A stretch of DNA of 64,000 bases from a bacterium. GTDB taxonomy: Bacteria > Patescibacteriota > Minisyncoccia > Phycocordibacterales > GWA1-40-21. Location of the stretch: NCBI GenBank assembly GCA_037131755.1, contig JBAXQJ010000004.1, forward strand, positions 1,094-65,093, written 5' to 3'. The notes beneath the pieces were generated by a model, which was not told the DNA's origin, ran no database searches, and saw only the letters and a list, made by a program, of their open reading frames with translations. Below are positions 14,289-32,603 of the stretch, one piece after another. The position numbers and the translations under genes are program-made. Numbering within the stretch: position 1 is the stretch's first letter; each line of letters starts with the position of its first letter.

Positions 14289-14361
14289 GCGCGTGTAGCT
14301 CAGTTGGTAGAGCGGTCGTCTTATACACGACTGGTCCCAGGTTCGAATCCTGGCACGCGCA
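14289..14361 (+). tRNA. tRNA-Ile (anticodon UAU)
   Basis: Manual cloverleaf of GCGCGTGTAGCTCAGTTGGTAGAGCGGTCGTCTTATACACGACTGGTCCCAGGTTCGAATCCTGGCACGCGCA: perfect 7-bp acceptor, 5-bp anticodon stem GTCGT/ACGAC, loop CTTATAC (U33, anticodon TAT, A37), discriminator A, no encoded CCA. Confidence 0.75.
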
Positions 14362-14476
14362 CAAACTAAAGCCGGGTTTTCATCAGATGAAAACCCGGCT
14401 GAGTATTTTATATGATTGGTCGCCAAGGTCTCACCTTTCCCGTCGCCGACTCCTCCCCAAGGAGAGACCTTGTCGC

Positions 14477-17055: not shown

Positions 17056-17473
17056 GGGGATGCATGTTTTGACAAAAAACCAAACCCTTTCGTGCAAAGC
17101 AGAGCTCCAACAACTCTTTAAAAGGTTGGAAATTGTAATTGCAAACACATTAGTTGCAAAGGCAAAGTCTCTTGTTTCTCCATATTTTGGAGTACAGGAT
17201 CTTGCTTTCGCCTACGTTGCTTAATCTTTTTAGATTAGCCTAGGCGGCGTCTCTCTCGCCTATTTCGCGGAGACGGGACGAGGCGTAATATACGCGAATA
17301 TATTTTGCAGTAGTCTCGACTGCAAACCGAGAACAAGAGAATCGGCTTATGATCATTTTTCTGATTTTGAAATCATAAGCTAAAATCCGTCACAAGACGG
17401 GACTAAATCAGATACGCTTTGTAGACTCGTCTGTGTTAATTTTTTGGACGCGGTTTCAATACCGCCATCTCCA
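17056..17473 (+). ncRNA. ssrA: putative tmRNA (SsrA)
   Basis: Begins GGGGATGCATGTTTTGAC (tmRNA-like 5' end) downstream of smpB. The 3' end CATCTCC-A can pair with 5' GGGGATG (one G-U) to form a tRNA-like acceptor, preceded by a T-arm-like GCGGTTTCAATACCGC. An internal ORF ends ...DLAFAYVA-TAA at 17222-17224. Not covariance-model verified. Confidence 0.5.
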
Positions 17474-17712
17474 CACTTTCAAAAATCCGCTCATTCTGAT
17501 GGGCGATTTTTGTTGTGTGGATATGAGCAAGCAAACTGCTTTGCTTGCGGGCGGTATTGAAAAGATTGGCGCTGTTTTGTCGGCAAAACCGCCAATCACG
17601 CGCCGTGGGCGGCAATTACCGCCATGTTTCTCAAACCCATTGACGAAACAACTGGAATGTGATAATTTTTTGACTGGAGTTTAAACCAAAAAAGTTAGAG
17701 AGGAATTGATAA

Positions 17713-25761: not shown

Positions 25762-28596
25762 CTAAATCTTAAACGGCGACACGGCCGGAGCTGGCGGGGG
25801 CGGAACGTCTTTTTTTTCATATTTTTTCACAATCTCTTTTTCTACCTCTTCCCGCTCCCGGCCAAACTTGAGATAGGACAATTCTTTGAGTTTGGAAATG
25901 ATAGTTGGATCACCTTTTGGCGGCAGCATATTTTGGATATTGAACGGCTTGACCGGCACTCCTTTGGCCAGCATTTTTAGATAACAGTTGAAATTATCGA
26001 TATTCATAATGTCTCGGGCCGTAAAGACCGGCGCAAATTGTTTTTCCAAAAATTCGGCATCTTCGGAACCGACCCGGAAAGCCGCGATGGAACCAACGTT
26101 GCCAAAGACGGAGTCTTTGATCTTTTCATCGAGTTGTTTGATATATTGATGAGCGATATTGAGTGACAGTTTGTATTTTCGCGCTTCGGACAAAATTGTT
26201 GAGATCGAATCAGTGGTAATGTTTTGGAATTCATCGATGTACAAATAAAACGGCGGGGTATCGGTGCCCAGAGAATCGACTCGCGACAGGGCCGCCATCA
26301 AAATCTTGCCGACGACGATCAAACCGATCAGGTTGGCATTGATATCTCCCAGACGGCCTTTGGACAAATTGACCAGCAGGATTTTCTTGTTATCCATGAT
26401 TTCGCGAAAATTGAAAGATGATTTTTCCTGGGCTACCACCGGTCGCATAATCTCGTTTGCCAAGAAAACATCAAACTTGCTGGTGATATACGGCACGATA
26501 TTGGCGAGCGACGCTTCGCCGCCAGCCTTTTCCGCCACCTCCCGCCAGAACTGAACCACAACTGGGTTTTTACAATGAGACAGTTTTAGCTCGCGAAACT
26601 GCTTATTGGCCAGAACCCGCGAAACATCCAAAAGAGTGTTGCCGGTTTCTGGATCTTCCAAGACCAGCATTGTCGCGTTGCGGAAATACTGCTCGAACAT
26701 CGGTCCACCCGCCACTTTCATATCAAACAATTTATTAAAAATCGACAGCATTTCGTTTACCACAAAAGTCTTTTGTTCCGGGAAACGAACATCGTACTCG
26801 AGCATATTGAGGGCCATCGGTCGTGGCGTATAGGCCGGATCGAAATAAATCACATCTTCGTAACGCTCCTTGGGAATGATCGATAAGATATCCTGAATAT
26901 CCGAACCGTGCGGATCGATCATACAGACACCGTCACCGTTTTTAATATCCTGGGCGATCATATTCTTGAGCAGAGTCGTCTTACCAGTACCAGTCTGACC
27001 GATGGCATAGAAATGTCGGAGGCGATCCTCTTTGGCCATATAGATTTTGGTCTCAACGTTTCGGTTTGTGTTTGTTCCCAAGAGAATTCCCTCCGTTGGT
27101 AGGCCAAGCGGCGCCGGTGCCGTCCCGCTCTTGGAGATTTTCACGCCCGGTGAAGCACGCATCTCGCCCGATGGTAAATGCAACATCGTTGTGATTTCCC
27201 GGATATTCAAAGGCATTTTCTGACTATTTTCGAACACTCGAAAGGAAAACTCCCGGAGGACTTTTTTGAGCTCCCGGCCTTTCATTCGGGCAAAGGATAC
27301 TCGATTACTGCCGGTATTTTCAAACTGATTAAAAGCTGATTCAAGGTCAATCAGGATTCTTTCGGCTTCGGACTCGGTTGGGGCGGAAGCAACTAATCGG
27401 ATATTGGTTTCGACGGTTGGTGACTGGATCTTGGCATTCAAATTTTCCAAGATCGCCTTGTCCGGCAAATTCCTTGGGTCTTCGCCTTTTTTGTCTTTTT
27501 CCTTATCCTTGTCTTTCTTGTTTTTTTCCGCTGACTTAAAAAGGGCTTTGCCGAAATCCTTCACTACCGACTTGAGCATGCCGGCAAAAGTCAGACGGTC
27601 CATCTTGATCGCGTCCTTCAGTTTCATCCCCTTATCAATATCTTGCAAAGCTCGCTTGTAGAAACGGGTGTAATGCTCCCCGACCGGCTTGAACACCAGC
27701 TGAATGGCGGCACCGGCGCCGTCTTTGCTGATTTTTGAGAAAGCGTTCAAGATTATATTTAGCGGATCATAATCAAAATGCTCATAATATTTGATCGGAT
27801 AAAAATGATTGGCGAGCTGTTTACCACAAGATACGACCGACTTACCGGTTTCATTAAAAATATTATAATCGTCTTTCTTCTCGAAAATCTTGGCGTTGGG
27901 GAAAATGGCCAGGATCTGTTTTTCAAACAAACCGACCTTGCTGTTAGGTACGGCGACATAGAAAACCGTTTCCTCACTGCCATTACTGTTAGCCAGTTCC
28001 ACCGTAAAATACTGCGGACCGTCCGTCTCATCAGAAACAGCAATCATGCCGGCATAAAACTGCTCCATTTTGGAAATTAATTCTTTCAAGTTACGCTGCT
28101 TGTCTTTTTCTTCTGTCGGTTCCGGCAAAGAAACTTCAAACAAGGTCATCTTGAGCGACCTGAAGAAAGGCGATTTTTCCAATCGGCCGGCAATCGGCAA
28201 GCCCGCCTTGATATATTGAACCAAGAAGCGGTGGAAATCGTCATCCAAATGCGAATCGTTCATTTTTTCCACGATGGACAAGGCATTCATCAGGCCTTTG
28301 GATTGCAAAACGGTCACCAGCTCTTCCATTTTGGTATCATGCTCTTCCGGCATTAAATCCAGGACGATTGCGTCAATTTCTTTTGGTTGCAACTGATACT
28401 CCGGTTCCAAGACTTTCTCTGGTTTTTCGGCTTTGTAGTCGATGATCTTTTCGGTAATCACCGCTTCACGAACCGGCTCTAGACCTTTTTCCGCAATCGT
28501 CTTTTCGTGCTTGGCCACCTGGGCGCGCAAAAAATTCAATTCCTCCTGGGGAGAACTGAATTTCTGTTCCATTTTTTCAAAACTACCTTCGGTCAT
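25762..28596 (-). CDS. VirB4/TraC/VirD4-superfamily P-loop ATPase (FtsK/HerA-like) with large N-terminal domain of unknown function
   Basis: 944 aa; Walker A AIGQTGTGKTTL; Walker B LYIDEF; downstream R-finger/HQ...QL region; no N-terminal TM helices. Confidence 0.6.
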   Translation of the reverse strand: MTEGSFEKMEQKFSSPQEELNFLRAQVAKHEKTIAEKGLEPVREAVITEKIIDYKAEKPEKVLEPEYQLQPKEIDAIVLDLMPEEHDTKMEELVTVLQSKGLMNALSIVEKMNDSHLDDDFHRFLVQYIKAGLPIAGRLEKSPFFRSLKMTLFEVSLPEPTEEKDKQRNLKELISKMEQFYAGMIAVSDETDGPQYFTVELANSNGSEETVFYVAVPNSKVGLFEKQILAIFPNAKIFEKKDDYNIFNETGKSVVSCGKQLANHFYPIKYYEHFDYDPLNIILNAFSKISKDGAGAAIQLVFKPVGEHYTRFYKRALQDIDKGMKLKDAIKMDRLTFAGMLKSVVKDFGKALFKSAEKNKKDKDKEKDKKGEDPRNLPDKAILENLNAKIQSPTVETNIRLVASAPTESEAERILIDLESAFNQFENTGSNRVSFARMKGRELKKVLREFSFRVFENSQKMPLNIREITTMLHLPSGEMRASPGVKISKSGTAPAPLGLPTEGILLGTNTNRNVETKIYMAKEDRLRHFYAIGQTGTGKTTLLKNMIAQDIKNGDGVCMIDPHGSDIQDILSIIPKERYEDVIYFDPAYTPRPMALNMLEYDVRFPEQKTFVVNEMLSIFNKLFDMKVAGGPMFEQYFRNATMLVLEDPETGNTLLDVSRVLANKQFRELKLSHCKNPVVVQFWREVAEKAGGEASLANIVPYITSKFDVFLANEIMRPVVAQEKSSFNFREIMDNKKILLVNLSKGRLGDINANLIGLIVVGKILMAALSRVDSLGTDTPPFYLYIDEFQNITTDSISTILSEARKYKLSLNIAHQYIKQLDEKIKDSVFGNVGSIAAFRVGSEDAEFLEKQFAPVFTARDIMNIDNFNCYLKMLAKGVPVKPFNIQNMLPPKGDPTIISKLKELSYLKFGREREEVEKEIVKKYEKKDVPPPPAPAVSPFKI

Positions 28597-28639
28597 TTGA
28601 AGAAATTATATCATATAAATATGCCTAATGGAAAAATAA

Positions 28640-29611
28640 TCATCTGTTTATTATTTTACCCATAAGCTTATATCCATTTCCATGACTTAACATCCCTAAA
28701 TATGATGCCGCTGTTTCTTTTTTCTGACTTTCCTCTAATCTCTTAAACATTTTGTTTTTAGTACTTGTCCTTAATACCCTATGATTCGGAAAATGCACCC
28801 AGCCCAAAAAATCCATACCAGATGCCAGGGTTTTTATAAAAATCTTTTGGGGATGCATACGCAATTTTAATTTTTGCTCCAGAAATTTGCTGATTATAGG
28901 CACCAGTTTTTCCAATTCACTTTTATCCTGCGAGAAAAAAACAAAATCATCGGCATACCTTATGTAATATCCTGCTTTCAACTTATGCTTTACAAATTGG
29001 TCAAATTCGTTCAGATACACATTCACCAAGAGCTGAGAGGTTAAATTACCGAGCGGCAAGCCCTTATAAATCATACCGCTATGGAAACTTTTAATGATAG
29101 TTCGCAATAAAACAAGAACATTCCGGTCTTTTATATTTTTCTTCAGAATTTCAAACAGTATTTTCTGATCAATGGACGCAAAACACTTCCTGATATCCCC
29201 TTTCAAAATCCAAACGGTTTTAGTGTGATTAAAAGACGCCCTTTTGCCAAAATTCCTGAACCTATCTAGGGCTTTGTGTGTTCCTTTTCCTAACCGGCAA
29301 GAATACGAATCAAAAATAAATTTTCGGTCAAAAAACGGATACAAAATCCGGTAAACCGCCCGGTGCAACACCCTGTCCCGCACGCTTGCCTTGTGTATGT
29401 CTCTCGGCTTCGGATCATTTACCTTGAAATTCTCGTAATTGTCATGAACATAAGTTTTGTTTTTCAAATCATCATGCAGGTCAATCAGATTGTCCATCAA
29501 TCTCAGTTTGAATTCCGGCACATCTTTCTTATCCTTTTTACCCCTTGAAAATTCCTGCCAGGCAAGGAGTAAGTTTTCCAAAGATATGATATGGTCATAG
29601 GCATGAGTCAA
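28640..29611 (-). CDS. diversity-generating retroelement reverse transcriptase
   Basis: 323 aa, RT domains only; YADD box (YIRYADDFVFF); DGR-type motif 4 LPLGNLTSQ ([I/L]GxxxSQ) in place of the group II QGxxxSP; TTG start at 29611. Confidence 0.8.
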   Translation of the reverse strand: MTHAYDHIISLENLLLAWQEFSRGKKDKKDVPEFKLRLMDNLIDLHDDLKNKTYVHDNYENFKVNDPKPRDIHKASVRDRVLHRAVYRILYPFFDRKFIFDSYSCRLGKGTHKALDRFRNFGKRASFNHTKTVWILKGDIRKCFASIDQKILFEILKKNIKDRNVLVLLRTIIKSFHSGMIYKGLPLGNLTSQLLVNVYLNEFDQFVKHKLKAGYYIRYADDFVFFSQDKSELEKLVPIISKFLEQKLKLRMHPQKIFIKTLASGMDFLGWVHFPNHRVLRTSTKNKMFKRLEESQKKETAASYLGMLSHGNGYKLMGKIINR

Positions 29612-29633
29612 AAATTTTCTAACAATAATGTCA

Positions 29634-29647
29634 CCCCCCCCCCCCCC
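29634..29647. repeat. homopolymeric C14 (G14 on minus strand) tract
   Basis: 14 consecutive C, 22 nt upstream of the RT start codon and between an ATG (29628) and the Avd-like reading frame. Confidence 0.9.
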
Positions 29648-29781
29648 GCAACACCCTGCCCGTCATTAACAGCCTGAAAGACGCTTATTTTCTCTGGATT
29701 TCCTATTTTGTCCATCTGCCTAATATACACAAATATTCGCTTGGTGAAAATGTTAGCAAATTATTTATTGAGACTATTGAA

Positions 29782-30006
29782 ATGACGGCTTATGCCGAGT
29801 TTTTGACCAGAACGGAAAAATTACCTTATATAAAAGTAGCAGTACGAAAATTAGATACACTAAAAGTTATGATTCAAATAGTCTGGGAAATAAAGGCTTT
29901 GGACGAGAAAAAATATATTGCTTTGTCAGAAAAACTGAACGAGACCGGCAAGATGCTTGGTGGCTGGCATAATAAATTAGCCAAAGAAAACTCCCCGACT
30001 AAATAA
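29782..30006 (+). CDS. avd: Avd-like accessory protein (four-helix-bundle family), N-terminally truncated in this frame; frame extends upstream to 29629 without a start codon
   Basis: C-terminus EKKYIALSEKLNETGKMLGGW resembles the Avd/TIGR02436 family. In-frame upstream segment ENAYFLWISYFVHLPNIHKYSLGENVSKLFIETIE also resembles the family N-terminus but lacks an ATG. The ATG at 29628 is in the -1 frame, across the C14 tract. Confidence 0.5.
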   Translation: MTAYAEFLTRTEKLPYIKVAVRKLDTLKVMIQIVWEIKALDEKKYIALSEKLNETGKMLGGWHNKLAKENSPTK

Positions 30007-30028
30007 TCGGGGAGAAATAAAGAGAGTA

Positions 30029-30150
30029 GCGGGACCGAGAAGGCAAACCCATTGTCACTGTTCCACCTGTTGTCAGGGTTACCGTTGTAGGCATTGAGCC
30101 TGTAGTCGTTGTACCGGTTCGTACCGAGCACGTTCGGGTTGCCGTCAGAA
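30029..30150 (-). repeat. DGR template repeat (TR)
   Basis: 122 bp, 109/122 identical to 30648-30769; all 13 mismatches are A (minus strand) in this copy. Confidence 0.85.
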
Positions 30151-30631
30151 ATCGTAATGAAACCATCTGTAGCGTTACCCTGGAATACTCGTCGGGACGC
30201 ATAAGTCTGTGTGATCTAAAATCACCCAGTTTCATTACCAAGTATCTTTATTTTTTATAAAGTGTCTGCATAAATCCTCTGTCTCAAACCGTGGCCCAAA
30301 ACATTCTCAACTTATGGATACTGGATTCGGCGGCAACAAACCTTGGCCTGTTACTTATACTCGCCTACTACCGATTTTATTCTAGCACAAAACTGTATTT
30401 TATCTGAAAAACGAAACCACCCTTTTAAAGGTGGTATTCTCGGAGTCTTTCGGCCATTTGTATTACAAGTGTAGCAAGTATAGAGAGATAGTCAATAATA
30501 AAATTTGAGCATTTTAAAACCCCATACTTTCGTATGAGGTTCCGATTCTACGCTGTATTCGGAAAGCGTTGTGACTTTGTCACATTTTTTCGAAGCCAAG
30601 GACAAAGACTCCGAGTGCCAGCGCCTAAATC

Positions 30632-31300
30632 CTAGGCCTGAGCACCAACTTGCGGGACCGAGAAGGCAAACCCACCGCCACCGCTCCACCTGCGGTCAGG
30701 GTTACCGTGGCAGGCAAAGAGCCTGTAGTCGTTGTACCGGTTCGTACCGAGCACGACCGGGTTGCCGTCAGAATCAGGAATAGGTTCGTGCATGGTGATA
30801 ATCCAGTCCAAACCCATTTCCTTGATTTCCTCATCCGAGAACATGTCCCGGATCAAGCAGGCTACTTCGGCATGCGGATCAGTCATCTTCCGTTTCTTGG
30901 CGTTACCACGAATATTCTTCGTGATTCGGTCATTGTCGGAGAACAACTTTCCAGGGATAACACCAATCTGGTGAACCGTCCCTGCCTTGGTCGGCTTAAA
31001 GTTCTTGTGTCGGAGCACGCTTTGGGCGTAACTGCCAACAGGTAAACCTTTGCCATTCAAGTGAACGATCCACTCTTCGCCGGTTTTCCCGTTCGAGACG
31101 ACCGTGAAATAAATCACGCCGTCCGCGTCTCGGGTCCACTTCATACCATCATTGAACCGCCCCTCGATTGCCCGCTGGAGAAAAGCATCAAGTTTTTCCG
31201 GATCAAATCCGTATTCCTTCTGAAGGAAAACCTGACGACCGATTTCCGCCAACTTACCGCCCAGTCTCGCCTGCAGATCGCCATTAAGTTTTGTACTCAT
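30632..31300 (-). CDS. DGR target (variable) protein, probable C-type-lectin-like fold with C-terminal VR
   Basis: 222 aa; the VR encodes the C-terminal NPD.R...GFAFSV segment, which resembles CLec-type VRs; no signal peptide. Confidence 0.7.
   Translation of the reverse strand: MSTKLNGDLQARLGGKLAEIGRQVFLQKEYGFDPEKLDAFLQRAIEGRFNDGMKWTRDADGVIYFTVVSNGKTGEEWIVHLNGKGLPVGSYAQSVLRHKNFKPTKAGTVHQIGVIPGKLFSDNDRITKNIRGNAKKRKMTDPHAEVACLIRDMFSDEEIKEMGLDWIITMHEPIPDSDGNPVVLGTNRYNDYRLFACHGNPDRRWSGGGGFAFSVPQVGAQA
30648..30769 (-). repeat. DGR variable repeat (VR) at 3' end of target gene
   Basis: Counterpart of the TR. The 13 differences all fall at TR adenines, mostly within AAC codons: TR peptide LGTNRYNDYRLNAYNGNPDNRWNSDNGFAFSVP versus VR LGTNRYNDYRLFACHGNPDRRWSGGGGFAFSVP. 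Confidence 0.85.
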
Positions 31301-31550
31301 GACAATCTCCTTTCTGTTTTACCCGCCATTATGACAGGTTTGGTTATGTTTGCTGGACTCTTCGCCACAGCTTTTAAGTGATTTTCTAAAAACCAACTAA
31401 AAGCTGTGGCGAATTTGCCTATCTCCTCGTCTTTTTAAGGTTCGGTTTATCTGTAACAAGTATAGCACCTATTACAATATTTGTCAATACTTACCAAGTT
31501 CCGTCAAGACCCACAAAGGACCGACCTTTGTATGTCCTTATTTAAGGCCA

Positions 31551-31575
31551 CATACCAAGGTTTAGCCTTGGTATG
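31551..31575. repeat. palindromic repeat element copy (loop in opposite orientation)
   Basis: cataccaaggtttagccttggtatg, 36 nt downstream of map. Confidence 0.65.
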
Positions 31576-31586
31576 ACTTTAGTGGG

Positions 31587-32360
31587 TTATAACATAGTCA
31601 ATATTTCCGCTCCGTCTTTGGTTATCACAATCGTATGCTCAAAATGAGCGCTTCTCTTGCCATCGGCGGTCCGATAGGTGTAGTCGTCATCATCTTGGAT
31701 AATATGCTTACTCCCCTCGTTTAACATCGGTTCAATGGCCAGCACCATGCCGACTTTCAATTTCTCCCCTTTTTCTTCCAGGCAATAGTTTGGCACATAA
31801 GGATCTTCGTGGGGCTTGTAGCCGACACCGTGGCCGCACAATTCCTCCACAATCCCATAGCGGAGCGGTCGGACATATTTTTCAATCGCATAGCTGATAT
31901 CGCGGACATGGTTACCCGCGAGAGCAGCAGCGATTCCCTCGTCCAAAGCGCTTTTTGTGACACTGATTAATTTTTGTGCCGCCTCATCGATTTTTCCCAC
32001 TGGTACAGTAACAGCATGATCAGTAAAAAGGCCTTTGTGATTTAACCCCATGTCGAGTGACACAATATCACCCTCTTTCAAGATAATCGGCTTTTCGTTG
32101 GGAATACCGTGAACAATCACATCGTTGACCGACACGCAAATAGCGGCTGGGTAAGCACGCTTGACCCCCGGCGGTCGATAATTCAGAAAGGCTGCTTTAT
32201 CACCATTTTCTTCGGCTAGTTTGATGGCCAGATCGTTTAAATCATTAGTGGATACTCCGGGTTTTACCGCTTTGGCCACTTGGCTCACGATAAAAGCTAG
32301 GCGTTTCCCGCCCTCGCGCAGTATCTCTATTTCTTCTGGTGTTTTAATCGTAACCGCCAT
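31587..32360 (-). CDS. map: methionine aminopeptidase type I
   Basis: 257 aa; the metal-ligand pattern (D, D, H, E, E) typical of MAP is conserved. Confidence 0.9.
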   Translation of the reverse strand: MAVTIKTPEEIEILREGGKRLAFIVSQVAKAVKPGVSTNDLNDLAIKLAEENGDKAAFLNYRPPGVKRAYPAAICVSVNDVIVHGIPNEKPIILKEGDIVSLDMGLNHKGLFTDHAVTVPVGKIDEAAQKLISVTKSALDEGIAAALAGNHVRDISYAIEKYVRPLRYGIVEELCGHGVGYKPHEDPYVPNYCLEEKGEKLKVGMVLAIEPMLNEGSKHIIQDDDDYTYRTADGKRSAHFEHTIVITKDGAEILTML

Positions 32361-32410: not shown

Positions 32411-32603
32411 AAGAGCGAGCCTTTGCCGCTTGGAAAATTCTCTAAGGCAAAGCGAGTTATTGCTTTTTGCGGGTTAGCGGAGCCAGCTTAGAAAATTAAA
32501 GAATTTTTTAGAAAAATCAAACTGTTTGAGGAATATTCTGATATGACGAGTTTTTGATTTTTCGTTAAGAAAAATGACTTAATTTTCAAGCTGGCGCAGC
32601 GCT
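32411..32603. repeat. MITE/ERIC-like intergenic repeat, copy 1
   Basis: About 135-bp core (gcgggttagcggagccagcttagaaaattaaag ... gatatgacgagtttttgatttttcg ... ttaattttcaagctggcgcagcgc) is more than 85% identical to 44892-45025; internal terminal inverted repeats ccagcttagaaaattaa / ttaattttcaagctgg. Confidence 0.7.

What the first reader, a model, noticed from the sequence alone, without database searches (positions are those of the whole stretch)
28640..31300. Complete diversity-generating retroelement with textbook adenine-specific TR/VR pair
The RT at 28640-29611 has the DGR-specific LGxxxSQ motif 4 (LPLGNLTSQ) and a YADD box, and lacks maturase/endonuclease domains. Two 122-bp repeats (30029-30150 and 30648-30769) differ at 13 positions, and every one is an adenine on the minus strand in the 30029 copy (TR) replaced by G/C/T in the copy closing the 222-aa target ORF (VR). 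In protein terms the TR reads NAYNGNPDNRWNSDNGF and the VR reads FACHGNPDRRWSGGGGF, so the adenine differences fall mostly within AAC (Asn) codons. This is the hallmark of DGR mutagenic retrohoming. The target is small, lacks a signal peptide and ends in a CLec-like VR.
Basis: partly seen in the sequence, partly recalled or inferred. Interest (0 to 1): 0.85.

Follow-up and report, generated by a model that had tools for sequence, protein, structure and literature searches.

The report
Active DGR with a repeat-tract switch
This is a working diversity-generating retroelement, of the type common in Patescibacteria (CPR bacteria), that rewrites the tip of a small lectin-like protein; its helper gene avd is interrupted by a slippery repeat tract that may switch the mutator on and off.

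Summary
All 13 are TR adenines at codon positions 1 or 2 (P~2e-9).

A near-identical sister population (L200) differs from the window at 24 VR positions, all at TR adenines, while scaffold and TR are identical. The element has therefore been active in nature.

The RT is closest to a 328-aa solved RT that I take to be Bordetella phage bRT. The target models as a C-type-lectin-like fold.

- An inverted avd gene (29603-30006, + strand) between TR and RT. This is the known CPR "B3" layout.
- A ~225-nt covariation-supported structured RNA upstream of TR, plus a conserved stem-loop after it.
- A C14 tract at the 5' end of avd that puts avd out of frame.

A simple-sequence repeat sits at this spot in most of 116 related loci: C6-15, (CT)n, (CA)n or tetranucleotide units. 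Its length differs between otherwise identical contigs.

Verdict: an ordinary member of a known DGR clade. It carries an apparently undescribed, probably phase-variable repeat at the avd/RT junction.

The parts
30632..31300 (-). Target (variable protein) gene, 222 aa. N-terminal helices followed by a C-type-lectin-like domain. No Pfam or NCBIfam family. Identical to NCBI MEI6528308.1.
30652..30773 (-). Variable repeat (VR), encoding residues 177-216. The last 23 nt (30652-30674) are adenine-free, GC-rich and invariant, resembling an IMH.
   Evidence: Hypervariable columns in homologues. 24 differences from L200, all at TR adenines.
30516..30539 (-). Terminator-like hairpin of the target gene (CCTCATAC-GAAA-GTATGGGG followed by TTTT).
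   Evidence: Read from the sequence. The same GGAACC...GGGGTTTTAA element follows target-family genes in L081, L100 and L190. Terminator hairpins follow the VR in other loci.
30379..30408 (-). Promoter-like site for the TR RNA (TTCAGA-18 nt-TAGAAT, with TG upstream of the -10).
   Evidence: Consensus scan. The TGnTAnAAT block is conserved at the same place in about 38 loci. Function is inferred.
30151..30374 (-). Conserved structured RNA domain directly upstream of TR: about 225 nt, 8 helices, 54 pairs.
   Evidence: RNAalifold gives 43 of 54 pairs with compensatory changes. 94.8% of cells are paired against 36-48% in slid controls, covariation score 0.62 against 0.12-0.18, and 0/500 shuffles reach the observed values. 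An nhmmer profile finds it in 99 of 102 related loci; the window hit is 30374-30137, E=7e-44. No Rfam match.
30029..30150 (-). Template repeat (TR). 31 adenines. The 3' 23 nt (30029-30051) are adenine-free.
   Evidence: Identical in the sister population L200.
29981..30014 (-). Conserved stem-loop (CTCCCCGA...TCGGGGAG) plus a U-run, 15 nt after the TR. It resembles an intrinsic terminator and sits where Avd-binding stem-loops are predicted in other DGRs. It overlaps the avd stop codon on the other strand.
   Evidence: Terminator scan. Conserved in 39 loci, and all 6 predicted pairs show compensatory changes. Comparison with Handa et al., bioRxiv 10.1101/2023.10.23.563531.
29603..30006 (+). avd (accessory variability determinant), inverted relative to TR and RT. 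It is out of frame at the C14 tract in this assembly. ATG 29603 is the reverse complement of RT codon His3, so the two genes overlap head to head by 9 nt.
   Evidence: Three-frame translation. Pfam bAvd PF22296 scores 41.1 bits against a cutoff of 40. NCBIfam DivGenRetAVD gives E=4e-15 over profile positions 3-103 of 104 once the frame is repaired. avd is inverted and adjacent to the RT in 116 of 116 related loci.
29634..29647 (.). C14/G14 homopolymer, the only simple-sequence repeat of this kind in the 64-kb window. It lies between the avd start codons and the first conserved Avd residue, and 22 nt upstream of the RT start. C12 or C15 (from ATG 29603), or C13 or C16 (from ATG 29628), would restore the avd frame.
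   Evidence: A repeat sits at the homologous position in most of the 116 related loci. All G/C runs of 9 nt or more in 672 kb of related loci lie at this site. Length differs between identical flanks.
28640..29611 (-). DGR reverse transcriptase, 323 aa, with a TTG start. Relatives have ATG four codons upstream.
   Evidence: ORF. RVT_1 E=1e-24. Best PDB match 8ub7_A, a 328-aa RT, at E=4e-38 against about 6e-18 for group II intron RTs. Thousands of Patescibacteria relatives.

Best explanation
A chromosomal diversity-generating retroelement of the Patescibacteria/CPR type, inserted just after the ribosomal-protein/adk/map gene cluster.

Shown:
- A 122-nt TR and its VR copy differ only at TR adenines.
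- The VR forms the last 40 residues of a lectin-like domain in a 222-aa protein.
- A sister population with identical scaffold and TR carries a different VR, changed only at TR-adenine positions. Adenine-specific rewriting has therefore occurred recently in nature.

Inferred mechanism:
- The TR is transcribed from its own promoter as an RNA of about 390 nt. This comprises a 225-nt structured 5' domain, the TR, a short linker and a conserved stem-loop with a U-run.
- RT and Avd bind this RNA and copy the TR into cDNA, misincorporating opposite adenines.
- The cDNA replaces the VR. The adenine-free, GC-rich 3' end acts as the homing boundary.

avd and RT are transcribed divergently, and their 5' ends overlap. 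A hypermutable repeat sits at that junction inside the 5' end of avd. I propose that slipped-strand changes in its length switch Avd synthesis, and hence mutagenic homing, on and off. Most sampled populations, this one included, would then be in the OFF frame.
For: TR/VR:
- 13 of 13 mismatches at TR adenines, P~2e-9, all at codon positions 1 or 2.
- Family-wide, 826 of 922 TR/VR mismatches (90%) fall at TR adenines in 54 loci.

Activity:
- L200 aligns over 4629 nt with 31 differences. 24 lie in the VR, all at TR adenines (P~1.6e-19). Scaffold, RNA domain and TR are identical.
- Protein variants P0242 and P0244 vary only at residues whose TR codon contains A.

Proteins:
- RT: RVT_1 only, best solved relative 8ub7 (taken to be bRT).
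- Avd.
- Lectin-like fold.

RNA.

Repeat tract:
- It occupies the same position in most of 116 loci: 87 poly-C, 12 (CT)n, 4 (CA)n, 3 tetranucleotide.
- All G/C runs of 9 nt or more in 672 kb of related loci are at this site.
- Length differs between otherwise identical sequences: L033/L035 have 8 and 9; L089-L092 have 11, 12, 11, 11.
- No repeat unit is a multiple of 3.
- The first in-frame start after the tract in the window would delete helix 1 of Avd.
Against: For the DGR itself, nothing substantial. NCBIfam's best RT model is the group II intron one, but at 152 bits it is far below its 300-bit cutoff, and no RT phylogeny was built.

For the switch:
- The avd frame state across assemblies is close to random or OFF-biased: 83 off, 24 ON, 8 ON through GTG/TTG, duplicates included. 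This would also be seen if the tract were not translated.
- The conserved Leu just after the tract is TTG in roughly 40% of loci and could serve as an alternative start.
- The upstream ATG may be conserved only because it is the reverse complement of a conserved RT His codon.
- No Shine-Dalgarno sequence precedes it.
- Homopolymer lengths in Illumina assemblies can be wrong by 1 nt.
- Most pairs with identical flanks have the same length (21 same, 5 different).
- No read-level data were available.
Confidence: 0.9

Rival explanations
1. The repeat tract does not act through the avd reading frame. It is a spacer or 5'-UTR element of the divergent avd/RT control region, and its length tunes transcription or translation of the RT, of avd, or of both. 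This would resemble poly-G or TA tracts in Neisseria porA or Haemophilus hif promoters.
For: - In the RT sense, the tract is usually followed directly by T and a -10-like hexamer. TAGAAT is the commonest, and 57 of 93 unique loci match at 4 of 6 or better. In many loci an AGAGG Shine-Dalgarno and ATG follow 13 nt later.
- The conserved stem-loop and U-run after the TR suggest the RT needs its own promoter.
- The near-random avd frame states fit a non-coding role.
Against: - There is no peak of -35-like hexamers at a 16-19 nt spacing across 93 loci.
- A -10-like match is weak evidence in AT-rich DNA.
- The tract always lies 6-12 nt before the first conserved Avd residue.
- In many loci, the window included, no start codon lies between the tract and the Avd fold.
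Confidence: 0.25
2. The C14 tract length is a sequencing or assembly error, or is bypassed by transcriptional or ribosomal slippage. Avd would then be made constitutively at some level, and the DGR would not be switched at the DNA level.
For: - Homopolymers of 10 nt or more are error-prone on Illumina platforms.
- Contigs often end at or near the tract (L093-L097; L200).
- RNA polymerase slippage on long runs is established (general knowledge).
Against: - An independent assembly (L099, GCA_964638605.1) also has G14, although it may derive from the same reads.
- The tract is present in more than 100 independent assemblies.
- In some loci it is replaced by (CT)n, (CA)n or tetranucleotide repeats. 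These are not error-prone in the same way and are poor substrates for RNA slippage. They still show roughly one third ON and two thirds OFF.
Confidence: 0.15
3. The element is a decaying relic. avd is a pseudogene, and the TR/VR differences are historical.
For: - avd is out of frame.
- The RT has lost the ATG start found in relatives.
- The VR is identical across 24 contigs of another strain (P0104).
Against: - L200 is identical to the window over about 4.5 kb except for 24 VR positions at TR adenines and 7 intergenic SNPs, which indicates very recent diversification.
- The RT ORF, the TR and the RNA domain are intact.
- The frameshift sits exactly in a conserved repeat, not at a random place.
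Confidence: 0.05

Closest known systems
CPR/Patescibacteria DGRs with 'B3' architecture (Wu et al. 2018, NAR, PMC5758913; Paul et al. 2017, Nat Microbiol, which I could not read)
   Same: The layout is target-VR, TR, avd in a different order or orientation, then RT. It is chromosomal, lies next to ribosomal-protein genes, and its target has no Pfam family. Wu et al. report B3 in 90% of their CPR set. All 116 related loci here share the layout.
   Different: I found no mention in that paper, or in full-text searches, of a simple-sequence repeat in avd or of the 225-nt structured RNA. I infer that B3 means an inverted avd from the text only, because the figure is not held.
Bordetella phage BPP-1 DGR (mtd-avd-TR-brt; bRT-Avd-RNA complex, Handa et al. 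bioRxiv 10.1101/2023.10.23.563531)
   Same: Shared features are adenine-specific TR-to-VR transfer, an RT of about 325 aa (best PDB match 8ub7, E=4e-38), an Avd four-helix-bundle partner, a lectin-fold target with a C-terminal VR, and a stem-loop just downstream of the TR. Handa et al. predict Avd-binding stem-loops at that position in 207 of 278 DGRs, CPR ones included.
   Different: - avd is inverted and lies downstream of the TR.
- Most of the structured RNA lies upstream of the TR (about 225 nt), rather than in a 140-nt downstream spacer.
- Only about 50 nt follow the TR before a U-run.
- The element is chromosomal, not phage-borne.
- Avd is too diverged for a phmmer hit to any PDB chain.
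Simple-sequence-repeat contingency loci (phase variation in Neisseria, Haemophilus, Campylobacter)
   Same: Mono-, di- or tetranucleotide repeats sit at the 5' end of a reading frame or at a divergent promoter. The position is conserved while the unit and length vary. The length is polymorphic between otherwise identical genomes.
   Different: Those loci usually control surface structures or restriction-modification enzymes. Here the controlled gene would be a component of a mutagenesis machine, in uncultured CPR bacteria. Switching itself was not observed.
Treponema denticola TvpA and other C-type-lectin/FGE-fold DGR variable proteins
   Different: There is no sequence-level match to FGE-sulfatase or DUF1566 families. 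The domain is much smaller. I saw no signal peptide or lipobox in the N-terminus, but this was read by eye and not tested with a predictor.

Membership tests
Diversity-generating retroelement | TR/VR repeat pair whose differences are confined to TR adenines | tested here: met
   13 of 13 mismatches at TR adenines, P~1.9e-9. 90% over 54 related loci.
Diversity-generating retroelement | VR inside the 3' end of a protein-coding gene, with TR adenines at codon positions 1 and 2 (AAY-rich) | tested here: met
   The VR encodes residues 177-216 of 222. All 13 changes are at positions 1 or 2, and 7 of the 9 changed codons are AAC or AAT.
Diversity-generating retroelement | RT of the DGR clade (motif 4 [I/L]GxxxSQ; no maturase or endonuclease domain) | tested here: met
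   LPLGNLTSQ and YADD are present. Only RVT_1 is found. The best solved relative is 8ub7, a 328-aa RT taken to be bRT, at E=4e-38 against about 6e-18 for group II intron RTs. No phylogeny was built.
Diversity-generating retroelement | Accessory protein Avd next to TR and RT | tested here: met
   PF22296 bAvd scores 41.1 bits against a cutoff of 40. NF033474 gives E=4e-15, below its 80-bit cutoff. The gene is inverted and out of frame at the C14 tract.
Diversity-generating retroelement | IMH/IMH*-type 3' boundary (GC-rich, invariant, then TR and VR diverge), with a hairpin after the VR | tested here: inconclusive
   The last 23 nt of both repeats are adenine-free and identical, and the sequences diverge right after CCCGC. 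I found no clear GC-rich inverted repeat directly after the VR. A terminator hairpin lies about 110 nt downstream.
Diversity-generating retroelement | Ongoing diversification: natural VR variants restricted to TR-adenine positions | tested here: met
   L200 differs at 24 VR positions, all at TR adenines, with TR and scaffold identical. Protein variants P0242 and P0244 agree. These are comparisons between populations; variation within one population was not tested.
Diversity-generating retroelement | Variable protein with a C-type-lectin (or Ig) fold displaying the VR | tested here: met
Simple-sequence-repeat contingency locus (phase variation) | Repeat with a unit not divisible by 3, placed between the start codon and the functional part of the ORF | tested here: inconclusive
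   The units found are 1, 2 or 4 nt, and the tract lies 6-12 nt before the first conserved Avd residue. Which start codon avd uses is unknown. A TTG codes the Leu just after the tract in roughly 40% of loci.
Simple-sequence-repeat contingency locus (phase variation) | Tract length polymorphic among otherwise identical genomes | tested here: met
   L033/L035 have 8 and 9, and this is the only indel in 2800 nt. L089-L092 have 11, 12, 11, 11 with identical flanks. Most other identical pairs share the same length.
Simple-sequence-repeat contingency locus (phase variation) | Repeat position conserved across relatives although unit and length change | tested here: met
   87 C(6-15), 12 (CT)n, 4 (CA)n and 3 tetranucleotide repeats among 116 loci. 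All G/C runs of 9 nt or more in 672 kb are at this site.
Simple-sequence-repeat contingency locus (phase variation) | Reversible, high-frequency ON/OFF switching with a phenotype | not testable with these tools
   This needs read-level tract-length spectra or experiments.

The most novel reading that the evidence does not exclude
In this whole clade of Patescibacteria DGRs, a hypermutable simple-sequence repeat at the head-to-head avd/RT junction acts as a heritable, reversible switch on the mutator itself. Most cells keep the DGR off (avd out of frame). Rare slippage variants turn it on, rewrite the variable protein, and can switch off again. One stochastic mutation device would thus gate another. 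The same clade also uses a DGR RNA in which most of the structured RNA lies upstream of the template rather than downstream.
Probability: 0.45. Interest if true: 0.75.

Novelty: new member of a known kind. Interest (0 to 1): 0.5.

Why it matters
The DGR itself is one more example of a catalogued class, here with unusually clean evidence of recent activity.

What could matter is the repeat tract. How DGR mutagenesis is kept in check is poorly understood. A conserved slippery repeat sitting exactly at the start of avd in more than 100 CPR elements offers a concrete, testable answer. Tract length versus VR microdiversity can be measured in existing metagenomes.

The covariation-supported ~225-nt RNA also gives a defined RNA partner for reconstituting a CPR DGR, and a candidate new RNA family.

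Tried and rejected
- Rfam, E-value mode on 28400-31700 and gathering mode on the whole window: nothing for the TR-flanking RNA.
- Exact look-up of the RT as I delimited it: not on record, because the public annotation uses a later start (P0121, 313 aa).
- L099 is identical to the window, so it gives no independent tract length.
- L100-L104 all have G10 but are uninformative. The RT protein used for that exact look-up is called through the tract, which forces the same length.
- Target look-ups P0006, P0014 and P0048 returned orphan paralogues with no RT nearby. Their VRs do not match the TR of L100, from the same samples.
- Promoter-spacer test for the tract: no preferred -35 spacing.
- Long-range duplex AAAUAAAGA/UCUUUAUUU flanking the TR: compensatory changes occur in the window, L021, L009 and L068, but the result is no better than cross-locus controls (6.9 vs 6.6 bp). 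I left it as a lead.
- Avd against PDB by phmmer: no meaningful hit.
- Literature: no paper linking DGR or avd with homopolymers or phase variation. Paul et al. 2017 and the 2026 'Minerva' preprint could not be opened.
- Chance repeat or ordinary gene duplication as the origin of TR/VR: rejected by the adenine specificity.
Full report
OBSERVATION. The repeat finder and a direct alignment place two 122-nt direct repeats at 30029-30150 and 30652-30773, spaced 623 nt. On the minus strand the repeats differ at 13 positions, and at every one the 30029 copy has adenine. With 31 A in 122 nt, the chance of that is about 1.9e-9. All 13 sites are first or second codon positions of the 222-aa ORF 30632-31300 (-). 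Seven of the nine altered codons are AAC or AAT, and the quoted peptides are right. The last 23 nt of both copies contain no adenine and are identical, and the sequences diverge immediately afterwards. No further VR-like copy exists in the window.

PROTEINS. The 323-aa ORF 28640-29611 (-) has only an RVT_1 domain and carries LPLGNLTSQ and YADD. Its best solved relative is the 328-aa reverse transcriptase of entries 8ub7-8ube (E=4e-38), which I take to be Bordetella phage bRT. Group II intron RTs come next at about 6e-18. NCBIfam's group II model scores 152 bits, far below its 300-bit cutoff.

The + strand between TR and RT encodes a bAvd-like four-helix-bundle protein. PF22296 scores 41.1 bits against a cutoff of 40. 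NF033474 DivGenRetAVD gives E=4e-15 over profile positions 3-103 of 104. The gene is inverted relative to the target, TR and RT. [quoted passage not shown] Among related loci from genome and metagenome collections, every one of the 116 that retains the RT N-terminus and upstream DNA has avd inverted and adjacent. The layout is therefore typical of a known clade.

IS IT ACTIVE?
- Across 54 related loci, 826 of 922 TR/VR mismatches (90%) are at TR adenines.
- The 90%-identity cluster of the target holds the window's own protein (P0241, NCBI MEI6528308.1) and variants. P0242 and P0244 have an identical scaffold but a different VR. Every variable residue corresponds to a TR codon that contains A, and every A-free codon is invariant.
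- Contig L200 (ENA ERZ27300137) aligns to the window over 4629 nt with 31 differences. Seven lie in the adk-map intergenic region and 24 in the VR, and all 24 are at TR adenines (P~1.6e-19). The scaffold, the spacer, the RNA domain and the TR are identical.

RNA AROUND THE TR. The roughly 225 nt upstream of the TR are conserved across loci and begin just after a conserved extended -10-like block. RNAalifold predicts 54 pairs in 8 helices, and 43 of them show compensatory changes. On the same alignment, 94.8% of cells pair against 36-48% when partners are slid. The covariation score is 0.62 against 0.12-0.18, and no shuffle out of 500 reaches the observed values. An nhmmer profile finds the domain upstream of the RT, on the same strand, in 99 of 102 loci. 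These include loci with other target types. Rfam has nothing there.

Fifteen nt after the TR comes a conserved stem-loop followed by GTTTTGTTT. All 6 of its predicted pairs show compensatory changes across 39 loci. It looks like an intrinsic terminator. It also sits where Handa et al. predict Avd-binding stem-loops in 207 of 278 DGRs. If transcription stops there, two things follow. The TR RNA is a separate transcript of about 390 nt. And, unlike the Bordetella element, most of its structure lies upstream of the template. A possible 9-bp duplex between the upstream AAAUAAAGA and the post-TR UCUUUAUUU covaries in a few loci but is not statistically distinguishable from controls.

THE REPEAT TRACT. 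The avd frame is broken by a C14 run at 29634-29647, the only such repeat in the window.
- Two ATGs precede the tract. ATG 29603 is the reverse complement of RT codon His3, so avd and RT overlap head to head. ATG 29628 is the second. Neither is in frame with the Avd fold, which begins 6-12 nt after the tract. C12 or C15, or C13 or C16, would restore the frame.
- The next in-frame start (29782) would remove helix 1.
- Related loci carry a repeat at the same place: 87 poly-C (6-15 nt, mode 10), 12 (CT)8-17, 4 (CA)n, and (CAGC)6, (CAAT)7 and (AACC)10.
- In 672 kb of related loci, 31 of 42 G/C runs of 7 nt or more, and all runs of 9 nt or more, are at this site.
- Tract length differs between otherwise identical sequences. 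L033 and L035 are 99.93% identical over 2800 nt, and their only indel is G8 versus G9. L089-L092 have identical flanks and an identical VR but G11, G12, G11, G11, and avd is called at 116 or 140 aa accordingly.
- Relative to upstream start codons, the frame is off in 83 loci, on in 24, and on through GTG or TTG in 8, duplicates included. That is roughly what random lengths would give.
- A repeat that is conserved in position but not in sequence, uses units of 1, 2 or 4 nt, and varies in length is the signature of a contingency locus. I therefore propose that it gates Avd, and with it mutagenic homing.

CAVEATS ON THE SWITCH.
- The start codon of avd is unknown.
- The Leu just after the tract is TTG in roughly 40% of loci, though TTA, CTG or CTA elsewhere.
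- The upstream ATG may be conserved only through the RT.
- The tract could instead tune the RT or avd promoters. A -10-like hexamer often follows it, but I found no preferred -35 spacing.
- Homopolymer lengths in short-read assemblies are imperfect.
- Full-text searches found no prior report linking DGRs or avd to such repeats. I could not read Paul et al. 2017.

VERDICT. The finding is real and correctly interpreted. It is an active DGR of the known Patescibacteria type, hence a new member of a known kind. The added value lies in the inverted avd, the structured TR RNA and, above all, the conserved repeat tract. I rate the tract a phase-variable switch at about 45-55% probability.

Noticed in passing
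window 30409-30515 (minus strand): The VR-to-TR spacer is 502 nt here against 312-432 nt in relatives. The extra stretch, between the target terminator and the TR promoter, holds a promoter-like site (TTGACT-16 nt-TACACT, 30495-30468) followed about 30 nt later by a terminator-like hairpin (30435-30416). It could be a tiny RNA or a 10-codon ORF (MAERLREYHL). Function unknown.
   Followed up: no
window 31361-31413: A 25-nt-arm inverted repeat, 88% complementary with a 3-nt loop, lies about 60 nt upstream of the target start codon, between map and the target gene. It has no U-run. It could be a map terminator or an operator.
   Followed up: no
window 25762-28596 (-): Immediately downstream of the RT is a 944-aa protein with weak TrwB/TraG/VirD4-type coupling-ATPase and HerA-like matches. 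I saw no link to the DGR.
   Followed up: partly
window 14289-14362 and 17056-17476: There is a tRNA-Ile with anticodon TAT, which is uncommon in bacteria, and a tmRNA with tag AKAKSLVSPYFGVQDLAFAYVA.
   Followed up: no
window 32447-32546 vs L200: Outside the VR, the only differences from the sister population are 7 SNPs clustered in 100 nt of the 300-nt adk-map intergenic region. This lies downstream of a GC-rich adk terminator hairpin. It is probably relaxed constraint.
   Followed up: partly
L081-L088, L185-L194 and about 35 of L001-L080: Many members of the target family stand alone among housekeeping genes, with no TR, avd or RT within 5 kb. I do not know whether they are remote DGR targets or non-diversified paralogues. 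Their VRs do not match the one TR I tested.
   Followed up: partly
L100-L104: The closest RT relatives with DNA in hand (81% identity) sit next to a different variable protein, ending ...DDYWWFAGRCK. RT/avd/TR modules therefore pair with different target families.
   Followed up: partly
L093-L097, L200, L100-L104: Contigs of the same strain often end inside avd, a few dozen nt before the repeat tract, or inside the target gene. These DGRs fragment short-read assemblies, which may hide tract and VR heterogeneity.
   Followed up: no
L004, L010, L013, L014, L017, L026, L027, L077, L079: The target-plus-TR DNA is 90-95% identical among genomes labelled as different candidate phyla (Saccharibacteria, Uhrbacteria, Wolfebacteria and others), while their repeat tracts differ in unit and length. 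This points to recent horizontal transfer or to loose taxonomic labels.
   Followed up: no
L124:about 2440-2500: One relative carries two adjacent repeats at the avd start, C12 followed directly by (CT)15.
   Followed up: no
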